Shown piece by piece: positions 1 through 18,232 of a DNA stretch of 18,232 nucleotides (position 1 is the stretch's first letter; every line of letters starts with the position of its first letter). Source of the DNA: a virus (lineage: Duplodnaviria; Heunggongvirae; Uroviricota; Caudoviricetes); IMG/VR virus record IMGVR_UViG_2698536647_000012. One strand, 5' to 3'. The notes beneath the pieces are model-generated. The model did not search any database. It was not told where the DNA came from and worked only from the letters and a program-made list of their open reading frames with translations. The position numbers and the translations under genes are program-made.

Positions 1-1284
1 TTACTTCTTCGCCTCTGCAACCACTTTACTACCCACGCCGCGGTTATTGTATTCCCACATGCGGTTGTAGTTAGTGTCATTCAGATTGCGCTGTATTTCG
101 TCGTTATCATCTACGCTGCCGGTATTACCCGCAAACGGACGATTAGAGATCACCGCATCGGCCCACGGTTTAGCCGTGTTAAAACCTTCGTTGATGGCGC
201 TATCACGGATCACCACCTGACCGTTGGTATTGGCATCAACATCCAGCGAGCGGCCCAGTTGCGCCACACCATCACCGAAAGCATTGAAACGGCTGTTTAC
301 GGCGAGGAAACCGTAGTAAATGTTGGACAGCGTAGCCGGTGCAAACACATACGCTTCTTGCTGAGTACGTGAGTTCACCACGCGGAATTCGGTGTTATCG
401 AACACCACTGCGCCGCGACCAGAAACGATATCCACATCCCCTTCAATGTAGCTGTTGGTCACCAGCGTACGCGGCTGACGATTCGTTTCCAGACGGTTCT
501 GCACACCGCTGTTGGTGACAAAGAAGGTGTTCTGACGACCGAGAATGTTAACGTTGTTAATCTGTACCTGGTCACCATCAGTACGCAGTGCCACCGCCGG
601 ATGGTTACCTGCATCTACGCTATCGCCCAGCGTGTTTTCGATGGTCAGATTTTGCAGTTGCAGGCCATTGTTTTGTGACCAGAAGACCGCAGAGCAGAGA
701 ACACCGATACTGTCGCTGCGTTTGCTCTGGCAGCTATCGTACATATACCACGCTGGTTTACCTGGCATATATTTGCCGCGCGGGTTGACGTCGTGACGCC
801 AGTCGGCAGGGCTCATGCCACCATCAAGGGAAAGCCCAATCTTCACATCAATCGGTTTTTCACCTGTACCGTACAGAGTAATTCCACCCGGAGCGGCAGG
901 GACATATACCGTTCCCTGATACTCACCAGGCATCACGGCAATATACTGGCGCTTGTTGGTACGCTTGATAATTGCCGCATCTACCGCCGCCTGAATCGTG
1001 GTATGCGTTACACCTTGAGTGCCCGCCGGGCCGACAACAAAGTCAGGTTGCGCAGGCAGGGTAATCGGGGAAGGATTCCACGCTGCAGCACCTGGTGTCA
1101 GGGATGCAAAATAGTGTTGAGCATCGAAATTCTGCGCTTCTTTTGCCGACAGAATCGGGCGAGAAGAGGTACCAGGCGCGGTTTGATCAGAAGGACGTTG
1201 ATCGGGCGGGGTTGAGCTACAGGCGGTCAGCGTCACGCCAAAAGCCAATGCCAGCGCCAGACGGGAAACTGAAAATGTGTTCAC
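1..1284 (-). CDS. ybhC: YbhC, pectinesterase-like / acyl-CoA thioesterase outer-membrane lipoprotein (host gene flanking attB-lambda)
   Basis: 427-aa ORF filling the window start. N-terminal lipoprotein signal with lipobox (LTAC). Sequence recognised as E. coli YbhC, whose 5' side abuts the lambda attachment site. Start Met at 1284; stop codon at 1-3. Confidence 0.88.
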   Translation of the reverse strand: MNTFSVSRLALALAFGVTLTACSSTPPDQRPSDQTAPGTSSRPILSAKEAQNFDAQHYFASLTPGAAAWNPSPITLPAQPDFVVGPAGTQGVTHTTIQAAVDAAIIKRTNKRQYIAVMPGEYQGTVYVPAAPGGITLYGTGEKPIDVKIGLSLDGGMSPADWRHDVNPRGKYMPGKPAWYMYDSCQSKRSDSIGVLCSAVFWSQNNGLQLQNLTIENTLGDSVDAGNHPAVALRTDGDQVQINNVNILGRQNTFFVTNSGVQNRLETNRQPRTLVTNSYIEGDVDIVSGRGAVVFDNTEFRVVNSRTQQEAYVFAPATLSNIYYGFLAVNSRFNAFGDGVAQLGRSLDVDANTNGQVVIRDSAINEGFNTAKPWADAVISNRPFAGNTGSVDDNDEIQRNLNDTNYNRMWEYNNRGVGSKVVAEAKK

Positions 1285-1330
1285 AGGTTGCTCCGGGCTA
1301 TGAAATAGAAAAATGAATCCGTTGAAGCCT

Positions 1331-1345
1331 GCTTTTTTATACTAA
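1331..1345. other. attL core (lambda O overlap sequence GCTTTTTTATACTAA); phage P' arm with Int/IHF sites extends right to about 1420
   Basis: Exact 15-bp lambda att core read in sequence. It is preceded by a bacterial-type B arm (..gaagcct) and followed by a lambda P'-arm sequence (gttggcattataaaaaagcattgcttatcaatttgttgcaacgaacagg...) leading into int. Confidence 0.85.
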
Positions 1346-1418
1346 GTTGGCATTATAAAAAAGCATTGCTTATCAATTTGTTGCAACGAACAGGTCACTA
1401 TCAGTCAAAATAAAATCA

Positions 1419-2489
1419 TTATTTGATTTCAATTTTGTCCCACTCCCTGCCTCTGTCATCACGATACTGTGATGCCATGGTGTCCGACTTATGCCCGAGA
1501 AGATGTTGAGCAAACTTATCGCTTATCTGCTTCTCATAGAGTCTTGCAGACAAACTGCGCAACTCGTGAAAGGTAGGCGGATCCCCTTCGAAGGAAAGAC
1601 CTGATGCTTTTCGTGCGCGCATAAAATACCTTGATACTGTGCCGGATGAAAGCGGTTCACGACGAGTAGATGCAATTATGGTTTCTCCGCCAAGAATCTC
1701 TTTGCATTTATCAAGTGTTTCCTTCATTGATATCCCGAGAGCATCAACATGCAATGTTGTTGGGATGGCAATTTTTACGCCTGTTTTGCTTTGCTCGACA
1801 TAAAGATATCCATCTACGATATCAGACCACTTCATTTCGCATAAATCACCAACTCGTTGCCCGGTAACAACAGCCAGTTCCATTGCAAGTCTGAGCCAAC
1901 ATGGTGATGATTCTGCTGCTTGATAAATTTTCAGGTATTCGTCAGCCGTAAGTCTTGATCTCCTTACCTCTGATTTTGCTGCGCGAGTGGCAGCGACAGG
2001 GTTTGTTGTTATATGGCCTTCAGCTATTGCCTCTCGGAATGCATCGCTCAGTGTTGATCTGATTAACTTGGCTGACGCCGCCTTGCCCTCGTCTATGTAT
2101 CCATTGAGCATTGCCGCAATTTCTTTTGTGGTGATGTCTTCAAGTGGAGCATCAGGCAGACCCCTCCTTATTGCTTTAATTTTGCTCATGTAATTTATGA
2201 GTGTCTTCTGCTTGATTCCTCTGCTGGCCAGGATTTTTTCGTAGCGATCAAGCCATGAATGTAACGTAACGGAATTATCACTGTTGATTCTCGCTGTCAG
2301 AGGCTTGTGTTTGTGTCCTGAAAATAACTCAATGTTGGCCTGTATGGCTTCAGTGATTGCGATTCGCCTGTCTCTGCCTAATCCAAACTCTTTACCCGTC
2401 CTTGGGTCCCTGTAGCAGTAATATCCATTGTTTCTTATATAAAGGTTAGGGGGTAAATCCCGGCGCTCATGACTTCGCCTTCTTCCCAT
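1419..2489 (-). CDS. int: Lambda-type integrase (tyrosine recombinase)
   Basis: 356-aa ORF; translation recognised as phage lambda Int essentially along its full length, adjacent to the att core and overlapped by xis. Confidence 0.95.
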   Translation of the reverse strand: MGRRRSHERRDLPPNLYIRNNGYYCYRDPRTGKEFGLGRDRRIAITEAIQANIELFSGHKHKPLTARINSDNSVTLHSWLDRYEKILASRGIKQKTLINYMSKIKAIRRGLPDAPLEDITTKEIAAMLNGYIDEGKAASAKLIRSTLSDAFREAIAEGHITTNPVAATRAAKSEVRRSRLTADEYLKIYQAAESSPCWLRLAMELAVVTGQRVGDLCEMKWSDIVDGYLYVEQSKTGVKIAIPTTLHVDALGISMKETLDKCKEILGGETIIASTRREPLSSGTVSRYFMRARKASGLSFEGDPPTFHELRSLSARLYEKQISDKFAQHLLGHKSDTMASQYRDDRGREWDKIEIK

Positions 2490-2685
2490 TTCTGATCCTC
2501 TTCAAAAGGCTACCTGTTACTGGTCGATTTAAGTCAACCTTTACCGCTGATTCGTGGAACAGATACTCTCTTCCATCCTTAACCGGAGGAGGGAATATCC
2601 TGCACTCGCGTACCCATCGACGAACTGTTTCAAGGCTTCTTGGGCGTCGCTGGCGTGCGTTCCACTCCTGAAGTGTCAAGTACAT
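2467..2685 (-). CDS. xis: Lambda-type excisionase
   Basis: 72-aa ORF (MYLTLQEWNARQRRPRSLETVRRWVRE...) recognised as lambda Xis; overlaps the int start as in lambda. Confidence 0.93.
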   Translation of the reverse strand: MYLTLQEWNARQRRPRSLETVRRWVRECRIFPPPVKDGREYLFHESAVKVDLNRPVTGSLLKRIRNGKKAKS

Positions 2686-2962: not shown

Positions 2963-3206
2963 GCTGTTCATTGCTGCTATACACTTTTTTGCTCTCAACG
3001 TAAGCGGTAGCCCATTCTGTTGGGTTGGTGCAGTTGCTTTTAGGAAATGCTATTTACCCCTTAAATGTCGGCTGAAAGAGCTAAAATCCATGCAAAAAAT
3101 TTACGCAATTTTGTGTATTATTGTGCAGTAAGTAATGAGCTATTTTCTGCGCAAAAAATGGATGGTAAATTTGTCCGGGTCAGGAAAAATTTTATGGGCG
3201 CTAAAC

Positions 3207-3737
3207 ATGAAAAAAGATTCGTATCCTTATTTGATTTGCATGACAGTTTCAGGGCTGATCTTTATTTTCCTTTTCTTCTGGTGGCGGGCAGATATCTACA
3301 GGGTCACGTTTCTTAATCAGAGTATATCCCACTATTACATTCTGTTTAGCATGGGAATAGCTTTTCTGTTATCTCTGTTTTGGGTTAAGAAGGGGATAGT
3401 AAAACAAAGAGGCTGGAAGAGTCTGTCAGCATACCTTAAGGTTTATGCAGGGATGTGCATATTTGCTGGATTTTTTCTGATTATACCCCTTACGACACTA
3501 ACTTATTTTTTGCCTGGAGAGACATCGTCTTATGTTGCACCGTATCGGTATACTTCCGGTAGTTCAAAAAGTTGTTCTGGAGCTGAGGTGGATGACCCCG
3601 ATCTACATGAGAATATTCGCATTTGCTATCCGTATGGCAATTATGAGTACGATAATATTATCTATGTTGAAAAGAAAATTAATATATTAGGTGCGGTAGT
3701 GACATATGCACAGACCGCGCGTGATGATACTGAATGA
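3207..3737 (+). CDS. Hypothetical integral membrane protein (about 4 predicted TM helices plus a C-terminal soluble Cys/Tyr-rich domain); accessory cargo gene
   Basis: Longest ORF in a visibly AT-rich block, on the strand opposite the pL operon. Strongly hydrophobic segments (LICMTVSGLIFIFLFFWW, ILFSMGIAFLLSLFWV, YAGMCIFAGFFLIIPLTTL). ATG at 3207 is in frame with the track ORF 3135..3737. No family recognised. Confidence 0.6.
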   Translation: MKKDSYPYLICMTVSGLIFIFLFFWWRADIYRVTFLNQSISHYYILFSMGIAFLLSLFWVKKGIVKQRGWKSLSAYLKVYAGMCIFAGFFLIIPLTTLTYFLPGETSSYVAPYRYTSGSSKSCSGAEVDDPDLHENIRICYPYGNYEYDNIIYVEKKINILGAVVTYAQTARDDTE

Positions 3738-7429: not shown

Positions 7430-7810
7430 TCAGTCAGCCCAACCTGATTTCGAGTTTATTTGGGTTTCTGACATTGTGTATTTCTTAATCGTGTCATCGT
7501 TAAAAAGAATAGTAAGTTCTTTTTTCGTACCGTTCGTTCCATTATGGAATAATCCATAGAATGGAATAAAAGTGGTGCCATTAACTTTTACTTTTGCAAA
7601 GGCGTACTTCCAGATCTCGTTTCCACTGTCAGTATATGAAACAGCATCAGGAGAACCAAAGTAAGATTTAACCTCATTCTTGGTTGTTTTACCTTCCTGA
7701 AGTTTAGACTGGACACTAATTTCAGTTTCATTTTTGAGTTGCTGGTTGCCTGAAGAAGCACACCCAGCCAATACAGATGCCATCATGGCAGCGATTAGGA
7801 TTTTTCTCAT
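7430..7810 (-). CDS. Lipoprotein (signal peptide plus lipobox LAGC), accessory gene in the rex position downstream of the repressor gene
   Basis: 126-aa ORF, N-terminus MRKILIAAMMASVLAGCASS. Same strand as and downstream of the repressor gene, so it would be expressed in the lysogen. Mature part loosely resembles small BamE/SmpA-like lipoproteins; not verified. Confidence 0.7.
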   Translation of the reverse strand: MRKILIAAMMASVLAGCASSGNQQLKNETEISVQSKLQEGKTTKNEVKSYFGSPDAVSYTDSGNEIWKYAFAKVKVNGTTFIPFYGLFHNGTNGTKKELTILFNDDTIKKYTMSETQINSKSGWAD

Positions 7811-10689: not shown

Positions 10690-11387
10690 AAAACATCGCC
10701 GCACAGATGGTTAACTTTGACCGTGAGCAGATGCGTCGGATCGCCAACAACATGCCGGAACAGTACGACGAAAAGCCGCAGGTACAGCAGGTAGCGCAGA
10801 TCATCAACGGTGTGTTCAGCCAGTTACTGGCAACTTTCCCGGCGAGCCTGGCTAACCGTGACCAGAATGAACTGAACGAAATCCGCCGCCAGTGGGTTCT
10901 GGCTTTCCGGGAAAACGGGATCACCACAATGGAACAGGTTAACGCAGGAATGCGCGTAGCCCGTCGGCAGAATCGACCATTCCTGCCATCACCCGGGCAG
11001 TTTGTTGCCTGGTGCCGGGAAGAAGCATCCGTTACCGCCGGGCTGCCAAACGCCAGCGAGCTGGTTGATATGGTTTACGAGTATTGCCGGAAACGTGGCC
11101 TGTATCCGGATGCAGAGTCTTATCCGTGGAAATCGAACGCGCATTACTGGTTGGTTACCAACTTGTACCAGAACATGCGGGCCAATGCGCTGACTGACGC
11201 GGAATTACGGCGCAAGGCTGCCGATGAACTGACCTGTATGACAGCGCGAATTAACCGTGGTGAGACGATACCTGAACCAGTAAAACAACTTCCTGTTATG
11301 GGCGGTAGACCTCTAAATCGTGCACAGGCTCTGGCGAAGATCGCAGAAATTAAAGCTAAGTTCGGACTGAAAGGAGCAAGTGTATGA
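10686..11387 (+). CDS. P: Replication protein P (DnaB helicase loader)
   Basis: 233-aa ORF recognised as lambda P along its full length; start overlaps the O stop. Confidence 0.95.
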   Translation: MKNIAAQMVNFDREQMRRIANNMPEQYDEKPQVQQVAQIINGVFSQLLATFPASLANRDQNELNEIRRQWVLAFRENGITTMEQVNAGMRVARRQNRPFLPSPGQFVAWCREEASVTAGLPNASELVDMVYEYCRKRGLYPDAESYPWKSNAHYWLVTNLYQNMRANALTDAELRRKAADELTCMTARINRGETIPEPVKQLPVMGGRPLNRAQALAKIAEIKAKFGLKGASV

Positions 11388-11563
11388 CGGGCAAAGAGGC
11401 AATTATTCATTACCTGGGGACGCATAAGAGCTTCTGTGCACAGGACGTTGCCGCGGTAACAGGCGCAACCGTAACCAGCATAAATCAGGCTGCGGCTAAA
11501 ATGGCGCGGGCAGGAATCTTAGTCATTGATGGTAAGGTCTGGCGAACGGTATGTTATTTTTAA
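11384..11563 (+). CDS. ren: Ren, C-terminally truncated (59 aa; homology lost after ...GKVWRTV)
   Basis: ATG overlaps the P stop (ATGA), SD AAGGAG. N-terminal 57 residues match lambda Ren as recalled; the ORF then stops 2 codons later where the AT-rich island begins. Confidence 0.65.
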   Translation: MTGKEAIIHYLGTHKSFCAQDVAAVTGATVTSINQAAAKMARAGILVIDGKVWRTVCYF

Positions 11564-11887
11564 TAATAGAAAACGTATGGGAGCTTAAATCCTTGTATAT
11601 GAAATTTATTACCGTCGCCCTACGGTTAAATCATGAAAATTTATATAAAAATGAATGTTCGTAATTGCATATTTAATATGATGACCTCGTGTTGACTATT
11701 ATAAATTATAGGTGTGTAAGATGTTTAAAGTAGATGAGGTGATTAATATCGATTCCTTACTATATATTCAAGCCCTGTGATTAAGCGATGTACTGAATGC
11801 TTGTAGGAAGGTTGTATATTATATAGTGTTTAAAATTATGGTGCTACAATTGTTTATGGCGTTTTGCAATCATGCGAAAACCTATGA

Positions 11888-11916
11888 TTGACAATTGTTA
11901 CTGAGTCTTGTAAGAA
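11888..11916 (+). promoter_or_regulatory. Candidate sigma70 promoter for the NACHT NTPase gene (-35 TTGACA, 17-bp spacer, -10 TAAGAA)
   Basis: Consensus -35 hexamer with 17-bp spacing to an A/T-rich -10-like hexamer in the AT-rich leader. Confidence 0.35.
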
Positions 11917-11951
11917 TGCACCACGTATTGGTTAATGAATGTGGTGAAAAA

Positions 11952-13847
11952 ATGGATGAGTTTCTTGCGACTATTATTAATAGCACAGTAGGAAAAGCTG
12001 CGGAAAAAATAACAGAAGTATTGCTCTCTAAACCTTGGGCTAGGGACCTAGATGAAGGCAAGGTTATACTCGAACAATTAAATGATCCCCTCGGAAGAGA
12101 AAATTATTTAAGAAAGCATGTGCTACCATCTCTGAAAATGAGAACTTTGCACAACGCTGATTATGATATTTTTTTAGATGATATTTATTATCCGTTAACT
12201 GTTGAGGTGGCATCTAATAAAGACAAGGTCGTTATAAAAGATGGGGTCACTTTACCATTTCATGGTATTGTAAATATAGTCGGTATAGCGGGGCAAGGGA
12301 AAAGTACTATTTTACGCAAGTTGTTTAGCGAGGAAATAAAAAAATCAGAACGGATGCCTTTTTTTATTGAATTAAGAAGGGTGAAGAATGCAAATATTAT
12401 TGCTTATCTGGCAGACATTCTTAATTCATTTGGTGTGGGGTGTTCAGAGGATAGCTTGAAAATATTACTGCAATCCCAAAGAGTCGTTTTAATGTTGGAT
12501 GGATTTGATGAGGTTAAACATGAAGAGCGAACTATGATGATGAATGAAATAAAAAACATTCATTATCATTTTAACACACCAATTATCGCAACAACGAGAC
12601 CAAATACAGATATATGTTATACTACTGATGTGTATAATATTTTTATAGATAAGCTAAATATTTCTGATAAGATTTGTATTCTTCATTCTTTATCGAAAAA
12701 TGACAGATTCTCAAGTAGTGATGCCTCGTTTAAAGTCTTGGCGGATTTACTATGTGATAAAGAAGAACTTGAGGGAACTATTTGCAATCCAATTTTAGTT
12801 ACTCTTTTGTATTATTGTTATCCTTATATGAATGATATTCCAAATAATATAATAGAGTTTTATCGAAGCCTCTTTGACACCTTATATGCAAGGCATGATA
12901 AAATAAAAGTATATACGCGCGAGAAAAAATCAAACATTATTGGTGAAAAAGCTAAATTGTGTTTTTCAGCTATTTGCTATAACGCACTGATTGAGGAGAA
13001 ATTTGAGTTTTGGGGAGAGGAGTTGCTTAGATATGCTGAAGATGCTATTGAAACAGAAGGTTATCTTAAAGAAGATGCATCAAACTTTATAGATGATCTT
13101 ATTGAGATAACTTGCCTTATCCAACCTGAGGGAAATAATAGGTATGTTTTTCTGCATAAATCAGTGCAAGAATTTTATGCTGCTTTTGCGGTAGCAAATT
13201 TACCGATTGAGTATAAAAAAGATATATACGAAAATCTTATGGTGGCTATTAAATGCTCTGAACAGTTAGATAACTTCATGTTGTTTTTACATTCACTAGA
13301 TTCCAAAGCATTTATAGATGAAATCACAATAAAAGCTTCTCGTGATATGGGGGTTGTAGATGTCGCAAACATGACGAGAGAGAGAGTTGAGAATGTTTTT
13401 GACTCGGCACTAAGTAGAGTATTTATCAAAGGCAACTCGACATCGAATGACTCAGTGATTTCGCTTCATTACGACTTTGTATTAGGTTCGCTCTTAGGTA
13501 TTGATATTCTACCTATAATGTCTGGAAAAGAACGAGTTCCTATGACAGAAATTGATTTGATTTTTGACGACCTTTTTTCATGCACGATGGATAAGGGTGA
13601 GTTAAACTTATACAAATTTGAAGTTAAAAAACAAAAAAATAATATTGATACTGATGTTCAGACTGATGATTATTTATTTCCCTTGGTGGATTATCTTAAG
13701 GTCAGGGGGGTTTATGGTTTGATGCTGGATACTTACCATCAGACAATTAAGGATTTTTATGATAGATATTATCAACCAGCTTATGATTCGAATCTTCGAA
13801 GAACACTAGCAATGGGAAGAAATTTCAAGTTAAAGAAAAATAATTAA
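11952..13847 (+). CDS. NACHT-type STAND NTPase (bacterial NLR-like protein), candidate anti-phage defence protein
   Basis: Walker A GIAGQGKST; Walker B of the NACHT type (VVLMLDGFDEV); sensor-1-like IIATTRP; NPxL-type segment (CNPILVTLL); winged-helix signature YVFLHKSVQEFYAAF. Start placed at the second in-frame ATG (MDEFLAT...); the track ORF begins at a TTG at 11895. Sits in a visibly AT-rich island. Confidence 0.85.
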   Translation: MDEFLATIINSTVGKAAEKITEVLLSKPWARDLDEGKVILEQLNDPLGRENYLRKHVLPSLKMRTLHNADYDIFLDDIYYPLTVEVASNKDKVVIKDGVTLPFHGIVNIVGIAGQGKSTILRKLFSEEIKKSERMPFFIELRRVKNANIIAYLADILNSFGVGCSEDSLKILLQSQRVVLMLDGFDEVKHEERTMMMNEIKNIHYHFNTPIIATTRPNTDICYTTDVYNIFIDKLNISDKICILHSLSKNDRFSSSDASFKVLADLLCDKEELEGTICNPILVTLLYYCYPYMNDIPNNIIEFYRSLFDTLYARHDKIKVYTREKKSNIIGEKAKLCFSAICYNALIEEKFEFWGEELLRYAEDAIETEGYLKEDASNFIDDLIEITCLIQPEGNNRYVFLHKSVQEFYAAFAVANLPIEYKKDIYENLMVAIKCSEQLDNFMLFLHSLDSKAFIDEITIKASRDMGVVDVANMTRERVENVFDSALSRVFIKGNSTSNDSVISLHYDFVLGSLLGIDILPIMSGKERVPMTEIDLIFDDLFSCTMDKGELNLYKFEVKKQKNNIDTDVQTDDYLFPLVDYLKVRGVYGLMLDTYHQTIKDFYDRYYQPAYDSNLRRTLAMGRNFKLKKNN

Positions 13848-13931
13848 ATTGATAGTTACAAAGAGACAGCTAATTATAAGTTTCTAACAGTTGAAAAATT
13901 AATTGTAAGTAGGCAATATTAATAAGCCGGA

Positions 13932-14029
13932 GCCTGAACAACTCCGGTGACTTCTGCGCTAAACGGGGACGTTTATGCGCACATACAATCCAACCTATCT
14001 TCTCCATTCACAGATGCAGAAATGCACCT
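13932..14029. repeat. Copy A of a ~100-bp bipartite repeat (conserved ends GCCTGAACA.C.C.GGTGACTTCTGCGC and CACAGATGCAGAAATGCACCT, variable middle)
   Basis: Both conserved blocks recur about 1.48 kb downstream with the same spacing (about 77-78 bp). Confidence 0.6.
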
Positions 14030-14281
14030 ACGATTTTTTACATTCGGTGTTTTACTTCGACAGCCAGAATTGGGAGTCTCTATTCGTCTGGCGGCTAAAG
14101 GTGATATGGAAATCGTTATGTTTTGGCCTGAGGTAGTTGTAACTGTTGTAGCAGCTATGGCTGTGATCATCATGGTGTCCATTTACTGGGGTTGACGACA
14201 TGATTTATCTGGGGATATATTCTGTGCGTTGCCGCAAAATCGGCACACGGGATTGGCGTCCCGGAATACTACTCAACGCAT

Positions 14282-14303
14282 ACCGCGTTAAGCGGTTTTT
14301 TTA
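14282..14303 (+). terminator. Candidate intrinsic terminator (ACCGC-gttaa-GCGGT then T7)
   Basis: 5-bp stem and 5-nt loop followed by TTTTTTT on the plus strand, upstream of the Roi-like gene. Confidence 0.4.
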
Positions 14304-14458
14304 TGCGCTAAGCACGGCTACGCCCAAATTATGGTGGGCTGTGTGAGGGCTTCTTCGGGAGCGCCGGATTTGAGTAGCCGGTTACGCCAACCTTGCACAG
14401 TTCACCACCAGTCGATTGGCGTCGTTGGTGGTGATGGTTAACCTGATGAGGTGAAACT

Positions 14459-15073
14459 ATGACTACTCAATTAGCATTCCACAAAACGACGTTTACCCCA
14501 ATTTGCCACAATAACAGAATTTGGCTTACTGCCACTGAAGTTGGTTTAGCTCTGGAATATGCGGACGATAAAGCAGTTCAGCGCATTTACTCTCGTCACT
14601 CAGATGAATTTACAGATATGATGACAAGGGTGGTCAAAGTGACCACCCCTCGTGGAATGCAGGACTCTCGAGTATTTAGCCTTCGCGGAGCCCATTTGAT
14701 CGCCATGTTTGCACGAACTCCTGTAGCCAAAGAGTTCCGCCGCTGGGTTCTGGATATTCTCGATCGAGAAGTTCAACAATCCCCGATCACAAAACAATTC
14801 ACTGATAACGAACTTTGCACACTTGCTTGGTTATGGCGAGCTGGGGATGCGATGTTAACCGCCTGCCAGAACGTTACTCCTCTTCTTCAGGTTGCGGAGC
14901 ATCGTGAAGCTGGTCGCTTCACTTCCATCGAGCAAGAATATCCCCAGATACTCACCAGAGCGCGAGCAATCCTCGCCAGAGAAACGGCACATGTAAAATT
15001 CCAGCCGTGGCAGGATGATAAGTGGAGTCGAGTATTGCCACATTTGCGTCAGAATGTTATTAAACAACGTTAG
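14459..15073 (+). CDS. Bro-N domain protein (Roi / antirepressor-like DNA-binding protein)
   Basis: 204-aa ORF with Bro-N-type N-terminal features (RIWLTATEVGLALEY..., ...FRRWVLDIL). SD GAGGTGA upstream. Position between the replication and nin genes, as for HK022 roi. Confidence 0.65.
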   Translation: MTTQLAFHKTTFTPICHNNRIWLTATEVGLALEYADDKAVQRIYSRHSDEFTDMMTRVVKVTTPRGMQDSRVFSLRGAHLIAMFARTPVAKEFRRWVLDILDREVQQSPITKQFTDNELCTLAWLWRAGDAMLTACQNVTPLLQVAEHREAGRFTSIEQEYPQILTRARAILARETAHVKFQPWQDDKWSRVLPHLRQNVIKQR

Positions 15074-17577: not shown

Positions 17578-17933
17578 TTATTGTTTAACCCATAATAATT
17601 CATTGACATTGAATCCCAACTTTTGAGCGGTTCGCACATAGTCTGCTTTTACTTTATCTGGAATAGTTGGGGTCCTTGCCAGAATCCATAGGTATTCTCT
17701 GTTCGGACCACTGACAAGAGCATACTTATACTCATCATCCAGTTTGATTACATTATAGCCACCATAGAAGGGGCCAAAAAACGAAACCTTCAATGCTGCA
17801 GTTTTAGTATCTCCAGTAAAGTATGCTTTACCTTCGCTCTCGCTCCATTTATTTTTCGTTGGATCGTATCCACGGTTAAGTACACGAATCCCTCCGTCGT
17901 TCCGTTTTCCATAAGTAGCGCTGACCTGTTCCA
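17578..17933 (-). pseudogene. Blc-like bacterial lipocalin, 5'-truncated by IS3 insertion
   Basis: Translation aligns with the C-terminal two-thirds of E. coli lipocalin Blc (ATYGKRNDGGIRVLNRGYDP...SEGKAYFTGD...ALKVSFFGPFYGGYNVI...YLWILARTPTI). The reading frame runs straight into the IS3 terminal inverted repeat, so the signal peptide and N-terminal strands are missing. Confidence 0.75.
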
Positions 17934-18232
17934 TGATCTTACCCAGCAATAGTGGACACGCGGCTAAGTGAGTAAACTCTCAGTCAGAGGTGACTCACAT
18001 GACAAAAACAGTATCAACCAGTAAAAAACCCCGTAAACAGCATTCGCCTGAATTTCGCAGTGAAGCCCTGAAGCTTGCTGAACGCATCGGTGTTACTGCC
18101 GCAGCCCGTGAACTCAGCCTGTATGAATCACAGCTCTACAACTGGCGCAGTAAACAGCAAAATCAGCAGACGTCTTCTGAACGTGAACTGGAGATGTCTA
18201 CCGAGATTGCACGTCTCAAACGCCAGCTGGCA
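17934..18232 (+). mobile_element. IS3-family insertion sequence, left end (continues beyond the window)
   Basis: Terminal inverted repeat TGATCTTACCCAGCAATAGTGGACAC followed by the orfA start; recognised as E. coli IS3. Confidence 0.9.
17999..18232 (+). CDS. insE: IS3 transposase OrfA (InsE), 5' part, partial at window end
   Basis: ATG at 17999; product MTKTVSTSKKPRKQHSPEFRSEALKLAERIGVTAAARELSLYESQLYNWRSKQQ... recognised as IS3 OrfA; ORF is open to the window end. Confidence 0.9.
   Translation, partial: MTKTVSTSKKPRKQHSPEFRSEALKLAERIGVTAAARELSLYESQLYNWRSKQQNQQTSSERELEMSTEIARLKRQLA

What the first reader, a model, noticed from the sequence alone, without database searches (positions are those of the whole stretch)
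11564..13930. AT-rich island replacing the ren 3' end encodes a stand-alone NACHT/STAND NTPase with uncharacterised flanking domains
Seen in sequence: ren ends prematurely (..GKVWRTVCYF stop), where composition switches to strongly AT-rich DNA. The island carries one large gene with a promoter-like leader. Its product has the full NACHT motif set: Walker A GIAGQGKST, Walker B VVLMLDGFDEV, IIATTRP, CNPIL and the winged-helix signature YVFLHKSVQEFYAAF. Established knowledge: bacterial NACHT and related STAND NTPases (bNACHT, Avs) are anti-phage defence proteins, and the early-region/nin junction of lambdoid prophages is a known cargo hotspot. Inference: this is a prophage-borne defence gene. The N-terminal region (about 120 aa) and the C-terminal region (about 250 aa, no obvious TPR/WD40/LRR periodicity) match nothing I recognise, so sensor and effector functions are unassigned and the architecture may represent an undescribed subtype.
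Basis: partly seen in the sequence, partly recalled or inferred. Interest (0 to 1): 0.85.

Follow-up and report, generated by a model that had tools for sequence, protein, structure and literature searches.

The report
Prophage-borne short bacterial NLR (bNACHT)
A lambda-like prophage carries, in a slot where related prophages carry other anti-phage genes, one intact gene for a short bacterial NLR-type (NACHT) immune sensor; it is an untested member of an already described and experimentally studied defence family, not a new kind of system.

Summary
A 2,371-bp AT-rich island (11557-13927; GC 0.32, against 0.47-0.51 in the flanks) replaces the 3' end of ren. The "undescribed subtype" reading does not hold. 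The protein aligns from residue 1 with the validated clade-14 bacterial NACHT proteins of Kibby et al.: bNACHT11 (39-41% identity), 01, 02 and 12. It starts with the family's N-terminal "MD" motif. Its C-terminal 190 aa is a divergent SNaCT sensor domain (profile-profile probability 96.6-99.9%). Its predicted fold matches NLRC4 and NOD2. The gene is under purifying selection (dN/dS 0.11). A promoter-like site upstream is conserved between alleles. Five diverged relatives occupy the same position in other lambdoid prophages. A sibling prophage at the same attachment site carries the known defence gene PD-Lambda-1 in this slot. The most likely function, by analogy with bNACHT11, is sensing of phage proteins, ATP-dependent oligomerisation and membrane/osmotic cell death (abortive infection). 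The phage triggers are unknown and no phenotype has been tested. Verdict: a new member of a known kind, of modest interest.

The parts
11384..11563 (+). Truncated ren (59 aa; the normal C-terminal ~40 aa are replaced by ...CYF*)
   Evidence: ORF; homology to lambdoid ren ends at 11556. PGAP marks it as a partial pseudogene in an identical locus.
11557..13927 (.). AT-rich cargo island (2,371 bp, GC 0.324) with no flanking repeats
   Evidence: The same ren-to-flank stretch (query 11384-14200, >=80% covered) occurs in 9 of 5,426 complete E. coli genomes and in no phage record.
11867..11951 (+). Promoter-proximal leader, conserved between two alleles of the cassette (86% identity, against 58-59% in the distal leader and 71% at third codon positions)
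11888..11917 (+). Sigma-70-like promoter candidate: TTGACA, 18 nt, TG-n-AAGAAT (10 of 12 matches, extended -10)
   Evidence: Both elements are kept in the 85%-identical allele. A consensus match only; not tested.
11952..13847 (+). bNACHT gene, 631 aa plus stop (identical to WP_053263715.1)
11952..12134 (+). N-terminal helical extension (residues 1-61), beginning MDEFLATI; presumed effector region (MDPIT/MEPIS-like motif). W29 is nearly invariant.
   Evidence: Role taken from bNACHT11 and the Bell/Hell comparison.
12135..13271 (+). NACHT module (residues ~62-440): Walker A K117 (12300-12302), Walker B D183/D186/E187, R216, winged-helix H402
13272..13844 (+). Divergent SNaCT domain (residues 441-631), the presumed phage-protein sensor. 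Includes the conserved C-terminal tail NF[KR][IL]xK[KR] (F625 = 13824-13826).
13928..14058 (.). Right junction: a conserved linker that in other lambdoid prophages lies just upstream of ninB/ybcN. Contains the hairpin 13927-13947.

Best explanation
The island is a single-gene anti-phage cassette. It encodes a clade-14 bacterial NLR-related protein (NACHT + SNaCT) carried as cargo between the replication genes and the nin region of a lambda-like prophage.

Proposed mechanism, by analogy with bNACHT11:
1. The gene is transcribed from its own promoter in the lysogen.
2. The monomer is held inactive.
3. Its C-terminal SNaCT domain binds one or more proteins of a superinfecting phage.
4. [quoted passage not shown]
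5. The N-terminal M-D... helices are clustered and disrupt inner-membrane or osmotic integrity (plasmolysis), killing the cell before the phage completes its cycle (abortive infection).

Shown here: family membership, an intact gene under selection, conserved catalytic and tail residues, and the hotspot context. Inferred: expression in the lysogen, the triggers, oligomerisation, the mode of killing, and the defence phenotype itself.
For: Family and fold:
- Pfam NACHT scores above the curated cut-off.
- The AlphaFold2 model has pLDDT 88.7 and pTM 0.87. Its top PDB matches are NLRC4, NOD2, NAIP and NLRP3, at E down to 4e-13.
- The protein is collinear from residue 1 with validated defenders: bNACHT11 41%, 01 38%, 02 37%, 12 35% identity over the first ~400 aa, and 39% over residues 1-452 against the full-length bNACHT11 cluster representative.
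- Kibby Table S1 assigns those proteins, and bNACHT23 and 04, to clade 14. Most have the 'NACHT+SNaCT' architecture.
- An NJ tree nests the window protein among them.

C-terminal domain:
- Residues 441-631 match the C-terminal profiles of relatives. hhalign gives 99.9% and 99.6% probability, and 96.6% (E 5e-10, full length) against members that hit Pfam SNaCT1.
- This domain occurs only at the C-terminus of 618-639-aa NACHT proteins among 1.84 billion cluster representatives.

Functional residues and selection:
- K117, D183, D186, E187, R216 and H402 are invariant, and F625 in the tail is nearly invariant, across 61 relatives.
- The N-terminus is M-D-x, as in the clade.
- dN/dS is 0.11 against an 85%-identical allele (dS 0.69). 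SNaCT dN is 2.5-3 times NACHT dN in deeper pairs, as expected for a sensor domain.
- The promoter-proximal 85 nt are conserved between alleles.

Context:
- Five relatives at 51-66% identity all sit immediately after lambdoid replication genes.
- A sibling prophage at the same attB carries PD-Lambda-1 (PADLOC E 2e-198) in this slot.

Mechanistic precedent: bNACHT11 preprint 10.1101/2024.12.17.629029 and Kibby et al. 10.1101/2022.07.19.500537.
Against: - There is no experimental phenotype for this protein or for any member of its sublineage.
- PADLOC 2023 gives no defence-model hit.
- The window protein does not itself hit Pfam SNaCT1.
- Its SNaCT cannot be aligned with bNACHT11's by BLASTP or significantly by profile comparison. 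The beta-augmentation interface therefore cannot be mapped, and the triggers are unknown.
- Proline 3 of the MDPIT motif, mutated together with D2 in bNACHT11, is glutamate here. bNACHT01 and 12 also lack it and still defend.
- The promoter is only a consensus match plus a two-sequence footprint.
- The gene lies in the pR transcription direction, so it is unclear how the prophage tolerates it during its own induction.
Confidence: 0.78

Rival explanations
1. It is a clade-14 bNACHT defence protein but senses infection indirectly rather than by directly binding phage proteins through SNaCT. For example, it might sense a host factor or chaperone perturbed by phage, as DnaJ mediates sensing for bNACHT25.
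For: The SNaCT domain here is not demonstrably homologous in sequence to bNACHT11's, so the binding mode need not be shared. A paper titled 'DnaJ mediates phage sensing by the bacterial NLR-related protein bNACHT25' exists (PMC12169576; title and abstract only were read).
Against: bNACHT25 has a different architecture, with a long N-terminal domain and 752 aa. The closest studied relative, bNACHT11, binds its activators directly. SNaCT evolves 2.5-3 times faster than the NACHT module, as expected for a surface facing phage proteins.
Confidence: 0.12
2. It is a functional NLR-like switch that serves the prophage itself rather than defending against other phages. Possible roles include addiction or post-segregational killing, control of induction, or lysis timing.
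For: The gene is oriented with early rightward transcription and follows O-P-ren, so it would be read through during induction. No phenotype is known.
Against: The slot is interchangeable with unrelated cargo, including PD-Lambda-1, EmrE, an acyltransferase plus lipoprotein, and TagO. It is therefore not a core phage function. The island is absent from almost all lambdoid prophages, occurring in 9 of 5,426 genomes. Five related proteins are experimentally anti-phage.
Confidence: 0.05
3. It is a decaying or inactive hitch-hiker gene.
For: It truncates ren. It is rare. It has foreign AT-rich composition, which may be silenced by H-NS.
Against: The ORF is intact in all copies found. dN/dS is 0.11 in each of the three domains. 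All nucleotide-binding residues and the C-terminal tail are conserved. By contrast, the neighbouring ren remnant in the sister allele has accumulated stops.
Confidence: 0.03
4. It represents a new STAND subtype, or an Avs-type protein, with novel sensor and effector domains.
Against: The protein is collinear and nested within clade 14. There is a profile-level SNaCT match. Validated bNACHT11-, 02-, 01- and 12-like proteins equally lack Pfam SNaCT hits. No clade-14 structure is in the PDB copy, which explains the lack of a fold match. Avs4 is only a distant structural hit, at E 4e-6.
Confidence: 0.02

Closest known systems
bNACHT11 (Klebsiella pneumoniae, WP_114260439.1; clade 14; Robbins et al. 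preprint 10.1101/2024.12.17.629029)
   Same: Similar length (639 vs 631 aa). Single-gene system. 39-41% identity, collinear from residue 1 to about 450. M-D N-terminus. Walker A lysine (K115 vs K117) and ATP-contacting arginine (R214 vs R216). A C-terminal domain of about 190 aa without repeats, plus a short C-terminal tail with a terminal aromatic or hydrophobic motif.
   Different: The SNaCT domains are not alignable pairwise, and the profile comparison is not significant. Residue 3 is E, not P. The tail is basic (NFKLKKNN) rather than LKEILGF. The window gene is prophage cargo. Its triggers are unknown.
bNACHT01, 02, 12 and 23 (Kibby et al. 2023; clade 14, NACHT+SNaCT)
   Same: Same architecture and clade. 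31-38% identity over the first ~400 aa. Single genes expressed from their own promoters. Defence against T-even phages, T5, T7 or MS2 has been shown for them.
   Different: The window protein belongs to a separate sublineage: an NJ branch with the 623- and 639-aa enterobacterial groups. That sublineage has not been tested and, in every context examined, is prophage-borne.
[quoted passage not shown]
   Same: The profile of the window sublineage's C-terminus matches the C-termini of SNaCT1-positive relatives over their full length (hhalign 96.6%, E 5e-10).
   Different: The window protein does not reach the Pfam model directly. Identity to those members in this domain is only 12-18%.
Mammalian NLRs (NLRC4 4KXF, NOD2 5IRM, NAIP, NLRP3)
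   Same: Best structural matches for the NBD-HD1-WHD-HD2 core (Foldseek E 4e-13 to 1e-9, about 460-470 aligned columns).
   Different: 12-17% identity. No LRR sensor and no CARD or PYD effector; a SNaCT domain and a short helical N-terminus take their places.
PD-Lambda-1 (DUF4041 protein; PADLOC PDLC03976)
   Same: Occupies exactly the same slot, between ren and the isrK/C4/antirepressor module, in a near-identical prophage at the same ybhC attachment site.
   Different: It is an unrelated protein, on the opposite strand, and ren is intact beside it.
Bell/Hell/HeLo-type membrane-targeting domains with the 'MEPIS' N-terminal motif (Bab; preprint 10.1101/2024.11.07.622273)
   Same: A very N-terminal acidic and hydrophobic motif heading a small helical domain. 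It has been proposed as a shared cell-death effector for bNACHT02, 11 and 23.
   Different: The relationship was not tested here. The N-terminal 105 aa gave no Pfam hit.

Membership tests
NACHT NTPases (Pfam PF05729; STAND) | Profile match above the curated threshold, with Walker A, Walker B, the sensor arginine and the winged-helix histidine | tested here: met
   43.9 bits against a cut-off of 26.7. K117, D183, D186, E187, R216 and H402 are invariant in 61 relatives.
NACHT NTPases (Pfam PF05729; STAND) | NBD-HD1-WHD-HD2 fold | tested here: met
   AlphaFold2 pLDDT 88.7. Top PDB hits are NLRC4, NOD2, NAIP and NLRP3. This is a predicted structure, not a solved one.
bNACHT clade 14 (NACHT+SNaCT; Kibby et al. 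2023) | Full-length collinear homology to validated members, and phylogenetic nesting among them | tested here: met
   (collinear from residue 1; 35-41% identity); an NJ tree without support values, with bNACHT04 as outgroup. Clade labels come from Table S1. The window accession itself is not listed in Table S1.
bNACHT clade 14 (NACHT+SNaCT; Kibby et al. 2023) | A short C-terminal extension without repeat elements, homologous to SNaCT | tested here: met
   No repeat families were hit. hhalign gives 96.6-99.9% against relatives' C-termini, including SNaCT1-positive ones. Caveats: there is no direct Pfam SNaCT1 hit, the comparison with the bNACHT11 group's SNaCT is not significant, and validated members also miss the Pfam model.
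bNACHT clade 14 (NACHT+SNaCT; Kibby et al. 2023) | Conserved extreme N-terminal motif (consensus MDPIT) on a ~45-60-aa extension | tested here: inconclusive
   The window protein starts MDEFL. D2 is kept, and P3 is E (A, L or P in close relatives). bNACHT01 (MDII) and bNACHT12 (MDLV) also lack P3 yet defend. The functional equivalence of the MDE variant is untested.
bNACHT clade 14 (NACHT+SNaCT; Kibby et al. 2023) | Single-gene system with its own promoter | tested here: met
   It is the only substantial ORF in the island. There is a promoter-like site with a conserved footprint. Expression itself was not measured.
bNACHT clade 14 (NACHT+SNaCT; Kibby et al. 2023) | Walker-A-dependent protection against phage; activator- and ATP-dependent oligomerisation; cell death | not testable with these tools
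   Requires plaque assays, biochemistry and microscopy.
Avs / AVAST STAND defence proteins | Match to Avs profile models | tested here: not met
   PADLOC-DB returned only three marginal hits, none to Avs, at E >= 0.013. Avs4 is a distant structural match only, at E 4e-6.
Prophage defence hotspot (ren/P to nin junction of lambdoid prophages) | The same flanks hold alternative cargo, including a recognised defence gene | tested here: met
   PD-Lambda-1 is in the sibling prophage. Other cargo is shown. Relatives of the NACHT gene occupy the same position in five other prophages. I did not find a paper naming this slot as a hotspot.

The most novel reading that the evidence does not exclude
This may be a prophage-restricted sublineage of clade-14 bNACHTs. 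Its SNaCT domain has diverged beyond sequence alignment from that of bNACHT11, so it may recognise a different, still unknown set of phage proteins, possibly those of competing temperate or lambdoid phages. It would act as one allele of an exchangeable defence cassette, alternating with PD-Lambda-1, at the ren-nin junction. If so, the resident prophage must somehow avoid triggering it during its own induction.
Probability: 0.45. Interest if true: 0.4.

Novelty: new member of a known kind. Interest (0 to 1): 0.27.

Why it matters
Clade 14 is described as the most abundant clade of bacterial NLR-related proteins, and one member (bNACHT11) now has a detailed mechanism. This locus adds a naturally prophage-borne sublineage with a strongly diverged sensor domain. 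It also shows that the ren-nin junction of lambda-like prophages swaps defence cassettes, with bNACHT here and PD-Lambda-1 in a sibling prophage. That makes it a convenient natural pair for two questions: how sensor specificity diversifies, and how a prophage tolerates an abortive-infection sensor during its own lytic growth. It does not open a new class of system.

Tried and rejected
- PADLOC (2023) and NCBIfam scans gave no informative hit. PHROGs matched only families of unknown function.
- The PDB sequence search found no relative, so the bNACHT11 cryo-EM structure is not in the copy.
- The direct profile comparison of the window sublineage's C-terminus with the bNACHT11 group's SNaCT was not significant, so I did not map the beta-augmentation interface residues.
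- Upstream regions of relatives at 51-66% identity share no alignable sequence. Only the 85%-identical allele gave a footprint.
- No direct or inverted repeats flank the island, so transposition is not indicated.
- Two scans of species-representative genomes found no close relative.
- tblastn against 50,697 phage records found only four distant hits, at 24-25% identity.
- Literature searches for a named 'ren hotspot' and for 'MEPIS' were unproductive.
- I considered and rejected the upstream starts at TTG 11895 and ATG 11916 (the 643-aa form in some databases). Homologues start at M-D, the candidate promoter overlaps these codons, and N-terminal additions inactivate bNACHT11.
Full report
**1. 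The observation**

The window starts in the host gene ybhC (1-1284, minus strand), next to a lambda-type integrase and excisionase. It then runs through exo/bet/gam, the repressor region, O-like and P replication genes, ren, the nin region and Q. It is therefore the left half of a lambda-like prophage sitting beside ybhC.

ren (11384-11563) encodes only 59 aa, ending ...GKVWRTVCYF*. Related phages encode 97-100 aa. Alignment with four lambdoid ren genes, and BLAST against five loci, put the end of homology at 11556/11557. Homology to other prophages resumes at 13928-13955.

The 2,371 bp in between have GC 0.324, against 0.505 and 0.466 in the flanking 2 kb. No direct or inverted repeats bracket them.

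**2. The gene**

One large ORF lies in the island (11895-13847). I take ATG 11952 as the start (631 aa), for four reasons:
- PGAP uses it in an identical locus.
- The product is then identical to WP_053263715.1.
- Relatives begin exactly there with M-D.
- The best promoter-like site overlaps the upstream in-frame ATG. It reads TTGACA at 11888, then 18 nt, then TG-n-AAGAAT ending at 11917, a 10-of-12 match.

Pfam NACHT scores 43.9 bits against a cut-off of 26.7, and no repeat family is hit.

An AlphaFold2 model built on 61 relatives is confident (pLDDT 88.7, pTM 0.87). Its best PDB matches are NLRC4, NOD2, NAIP and NLRP3, with E from 4e-13. So the NACHT assignment is sound.

**3. What the flanking regions are**

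They belong to a described family.

Table S2 of Kibby et al. (bioRxiv 10.1101/2022.07.19.500537) gives the first ~400 residues of the tested bNACHT proteins. The window protein aligns with them from residue 1: bNACHT11 41%, bNACHT01 38%, bNACHT02 37%, bNACHT12 35% and bNACHT23 31% identity. bNACHT04 is far lower, at 24%.

I retrieved the full-length cluster representative of bNACHT11 (P0153, 99% identical to the published 399 aa). BLASTP against it gives 39% identity over residues 1-452.

Kibby Table S1 places bNACHT01, 02, 04, 11, 12, 22, 23 and 24 in clade 14. It annotates 01, 02, 11, 12 and 23 as 'NACHT+SNaCT', with SNaCT at roughly 445-640. A neighbour-joining tree of the first ~400 residues, rooted on bNACHT04, nests the window protein inside the group bracketed by bNACHT23 and bNACHT01/02/11/12. 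The tree has no support values.

**4. The C-terminal domain**

The window protein does not hit Pfam SNaCT1 directly. However, 22 of 61 relatives do, the best at E 1e-88.

Profile-profile comparison of residues 441-631 (the window plus eight relatives of at least 50% identity) matches the C-termini of three groups over their full length:

| Compared group | hhalign probability | E-value |
|---|---|---|
| 639-aa group | 99.9% | 1e-36 |
| 623-aa group | 99.6% | 3e-24 |
| SNaCT1-positive group | 96.6% | 5e-10 |

The validated bNACHT11-, 02-, 01- and 12-like proteins also lack a Pfam SNaCT hit. That miss therefore does not argue against membership.

Against the bNACHT11 group itself, the profile comparison is collinear but not significant, and BLASTP finds nothing. 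The sensor domain has thus diverged beyond sequence recognition from the one member with a structure.

Searching 1.84 billion cluster representatives with the domain alone returns eight hits. Four are the C-termini of 618-639-aa NACHT proteins. Two are short fragments at 98% identity. Two are weak multi-stretch matches in long proteins, probably chance.

**5. Signs of function**

- Against an allele at 85% aa identity (P0002), dN/dS is 0.11 with dS 0.69. The three segments give similar values: 0.09, 0.11 and 0.12.
- In deeper pairs, dN of SNaCT (0.43-0.50) is 2.5-3 times that of the NACHT module (0.16-0.21). This matches the faster diversification of SNaCT reported by Kibby et al..
- K117, D183, D186, E187, R216 and H402 are invariant, and W29, R528, Y607 and F625 nearly invariant, across 61 relatives.
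- The last residues form a conserved tail, NF[KR][IL]xK[KR], in the sublineage. In bNACHT11 the C-terminal tail docks into the neighbouring protomer and is required for oligomerisation and defence.
- The 85 nt before the ATG, which include both promoter elements, are 86% identical between the two alleles. The distal leader is 58-59% identical and third codon positions 71%.
- By contrast, the ren remnant beside the P0002 allele is only 69% identical and is interrupted by stop codons. So the gene and its proximal leader are maintained, and the truncated ren is not.

**6. Context**

The ren-to-flank stretch holding the island (query 11384-14200) is at least 80% covered in 9 of 5,426 complete E. 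coli genomes. In each it follows replication protein P and a truncated ren. It occurs in none of 50,697 phage records. By tblastn those phage records contain only four distant relatives.

Cluster members of the protein come from E. coli, Salmonella enterica and E. marmotae.

Five diverged relatives for which context was available (P0004, P0005, P0006, P0007 and P0009; 51-66% identity) all lie directly after lambdoid replication genes. Where the contig extends far enough, they lie before rusA/ylcG/Q-type genes. One of them sits beside FRG, a Ser/Thr kinase and a KAP NTPase.

Other prophages hold different cargo in the slot: EmrE, an acyltransferase plus lipoprotein, TagO, or small ORFs.

The closest overall relative of the window is the prophage of strain MFDS1016424, at the same ybhC site (82% coverage at 97.8% identity). 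It has intact ren and, in the same slot, a DUF4041 gene. That gene matches PADLOC's PD-Lambda-1 model at E 2e-198. So this slot exchanges defence cassettes.

The right junction (13928-14058, with the hairpin at 13927-13947) repeats a sequence that in other prophages lies just upstream of ninB/ybcN. It is kept beside the P0002 allele too. It looks like a conserved linker at which modules are swapped.

**7. Mechanism**

For bNACHT01, the Walker A lysine is needed for defence.

For bNACHT11 (preprint 10.1101/2024.12.17.629029):
- The SNaCT domain binds several unrelated phage proteins through beta-augmentation plus hydrophobic contacts.
- Binding with ATP gives a heptameric wheel.
- The C-terminal tail stabilises that wheel.
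- The unresolved N-terminal ~45 residues carry the MDPIT motif. D2A/P3A mutations and N-terminal additions abolish defence.
- Activation causes plasmolysis and cell death.

A second preprint (10.1101/2024.11.07.622273) relates this motif to Bell/Hell/HeLo membrane-targeting domains.

I infer the same chain of events here, because the nucleotide-binding residues, the M-D N-terminus, a SNaCT domain and a conserved tail are all present.

Several steps are not shown: expression in the lysogen, the triggers, oligomerisation and killing. Residue 3 is glutamate rather than proline, although bNACHT01 and 12 also lack the proline. The sensor interface cannot be mapped.

**8. Rivals**

- Indirect sensing remains possible.
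- A role in the prophage's own biology is unlikely, given the interchangeable cargo and the rarity of the island.
- An inactive remnant is contradicted by the selection analysis.
- A new subtype or an Avs protein is contradicted by the collinearity, the tree and the absence of any Avs hit.

**9. Verdict**

The sequence observation is confirmed. The defence inference is reasonable and is strengthened by context. The suggestion of an undescribed architecture is not supported. This is an untested, prophage-borne member of clade-14 bNACHT proteins, with a strongly diverged SNaCT sensor. Novelty: a new member of a known kind. Interest is modest.

Noticed in passing
window 14230-14302 and 14327-14412 (+), with the gene at 14459-15073 (+): Just right of the island, Rfam finds an isrK Hfq-binding sRNA (60.7 bits) and a C4 antisense RNA (72.4 bits), both above their gathering scores. 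They lie directly upstream of a Bro-N / P22AR C-terminal (antirepressor-like) gene. This resembles P1/P7-type c4-ant or Gifsy isrK-antQ control modules (the resemblance is from my own knowledge).
   Followed up: partly
L013:11935-13437 (-), E. coli MFDS1016424 prophage at ybhC: The closest sibling prophage carries a DUF4041 protein that matches PADLOC PD-Lambda-1 (E 2e-198) in exactly the slot occupied here by the NACHT gene. Its ren is intact.
   Followed up: yes
window 13928-14058 (hairpin 13927-13947): The right junction of the island is a ~130-bp sequence that other lambdoid prophages have immediately upstream of ninB/ybcN. It contains an 8-bp-stem GC-rich hairpin with no T-run on the + strand. 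It may be a module-exchange linker or a tR2-like element.
   Followed up: partly
L014:52-135 (metagenomic allele P0002, 85% aa identity): The sister allele sits behind a ren remnant that is only 69% identical and interrupted by stop codons, and it has the same right-hand hairpin. The ren'-NACHT-hairpin cassette is therefore old, and the sharp break at 11556 in the window may be a later recombination inside ren.
   Followed up: partly
L009:1841-6577 (context of P0007, Enterobacter): Between replication protein P and the NACHT homologue lie an FRG-domain protein, a Ser/Thr protein kinase and, on the minus strand, a 746-aa KAP NTPase. This looks like a small multi-gene defence island in the same prophage slot.
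   Followed up: no
window 7430-7810 (-): A 126-aa BamE-like lipoprotein gene (Pfam BamE 21.8 bits, just below the cut-off of 23.2) lies in an AT-rich patch (GC 0.36-0.40) between the kil/gam side and the repressor. It is a likely moron, possibly involved in surface exclusion.
   Followed up: partly
window 3135-3737 (+): A 200-aa ORF on the opposite strand to its neighbours lies in an AT-rich patch (GC ~0.38-0.40) between xis and the exo/bet region. It has no Pfam or PADLOC hit and is annotated hypothetical (WP_001348592.1) in a sibling prophage. In strain Res13 an IS66 element sits at about this place.
   Followed up: partly
window 1-2685: The window begins in the host gene ybhC (1-1284, -), followed by a tyrosine integrase (1419-2489, -) and an excisionase (2467-2685, -). 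The prophage end and attachment site therefore lie near 1285-1418. The NACHT island also occurs in a differently integrated prophage with intD, so it moves between mosaic lambdoid backbones.
   Followed up: partly
window ~17600-18232 (-): By comparison with sibling loci, an ompC/nmpC-like porin gene on the minus strand follows the Q antiterminator gene and runs off the right end of the window. It is another cargo gene of this prophage.
   Followed up: no
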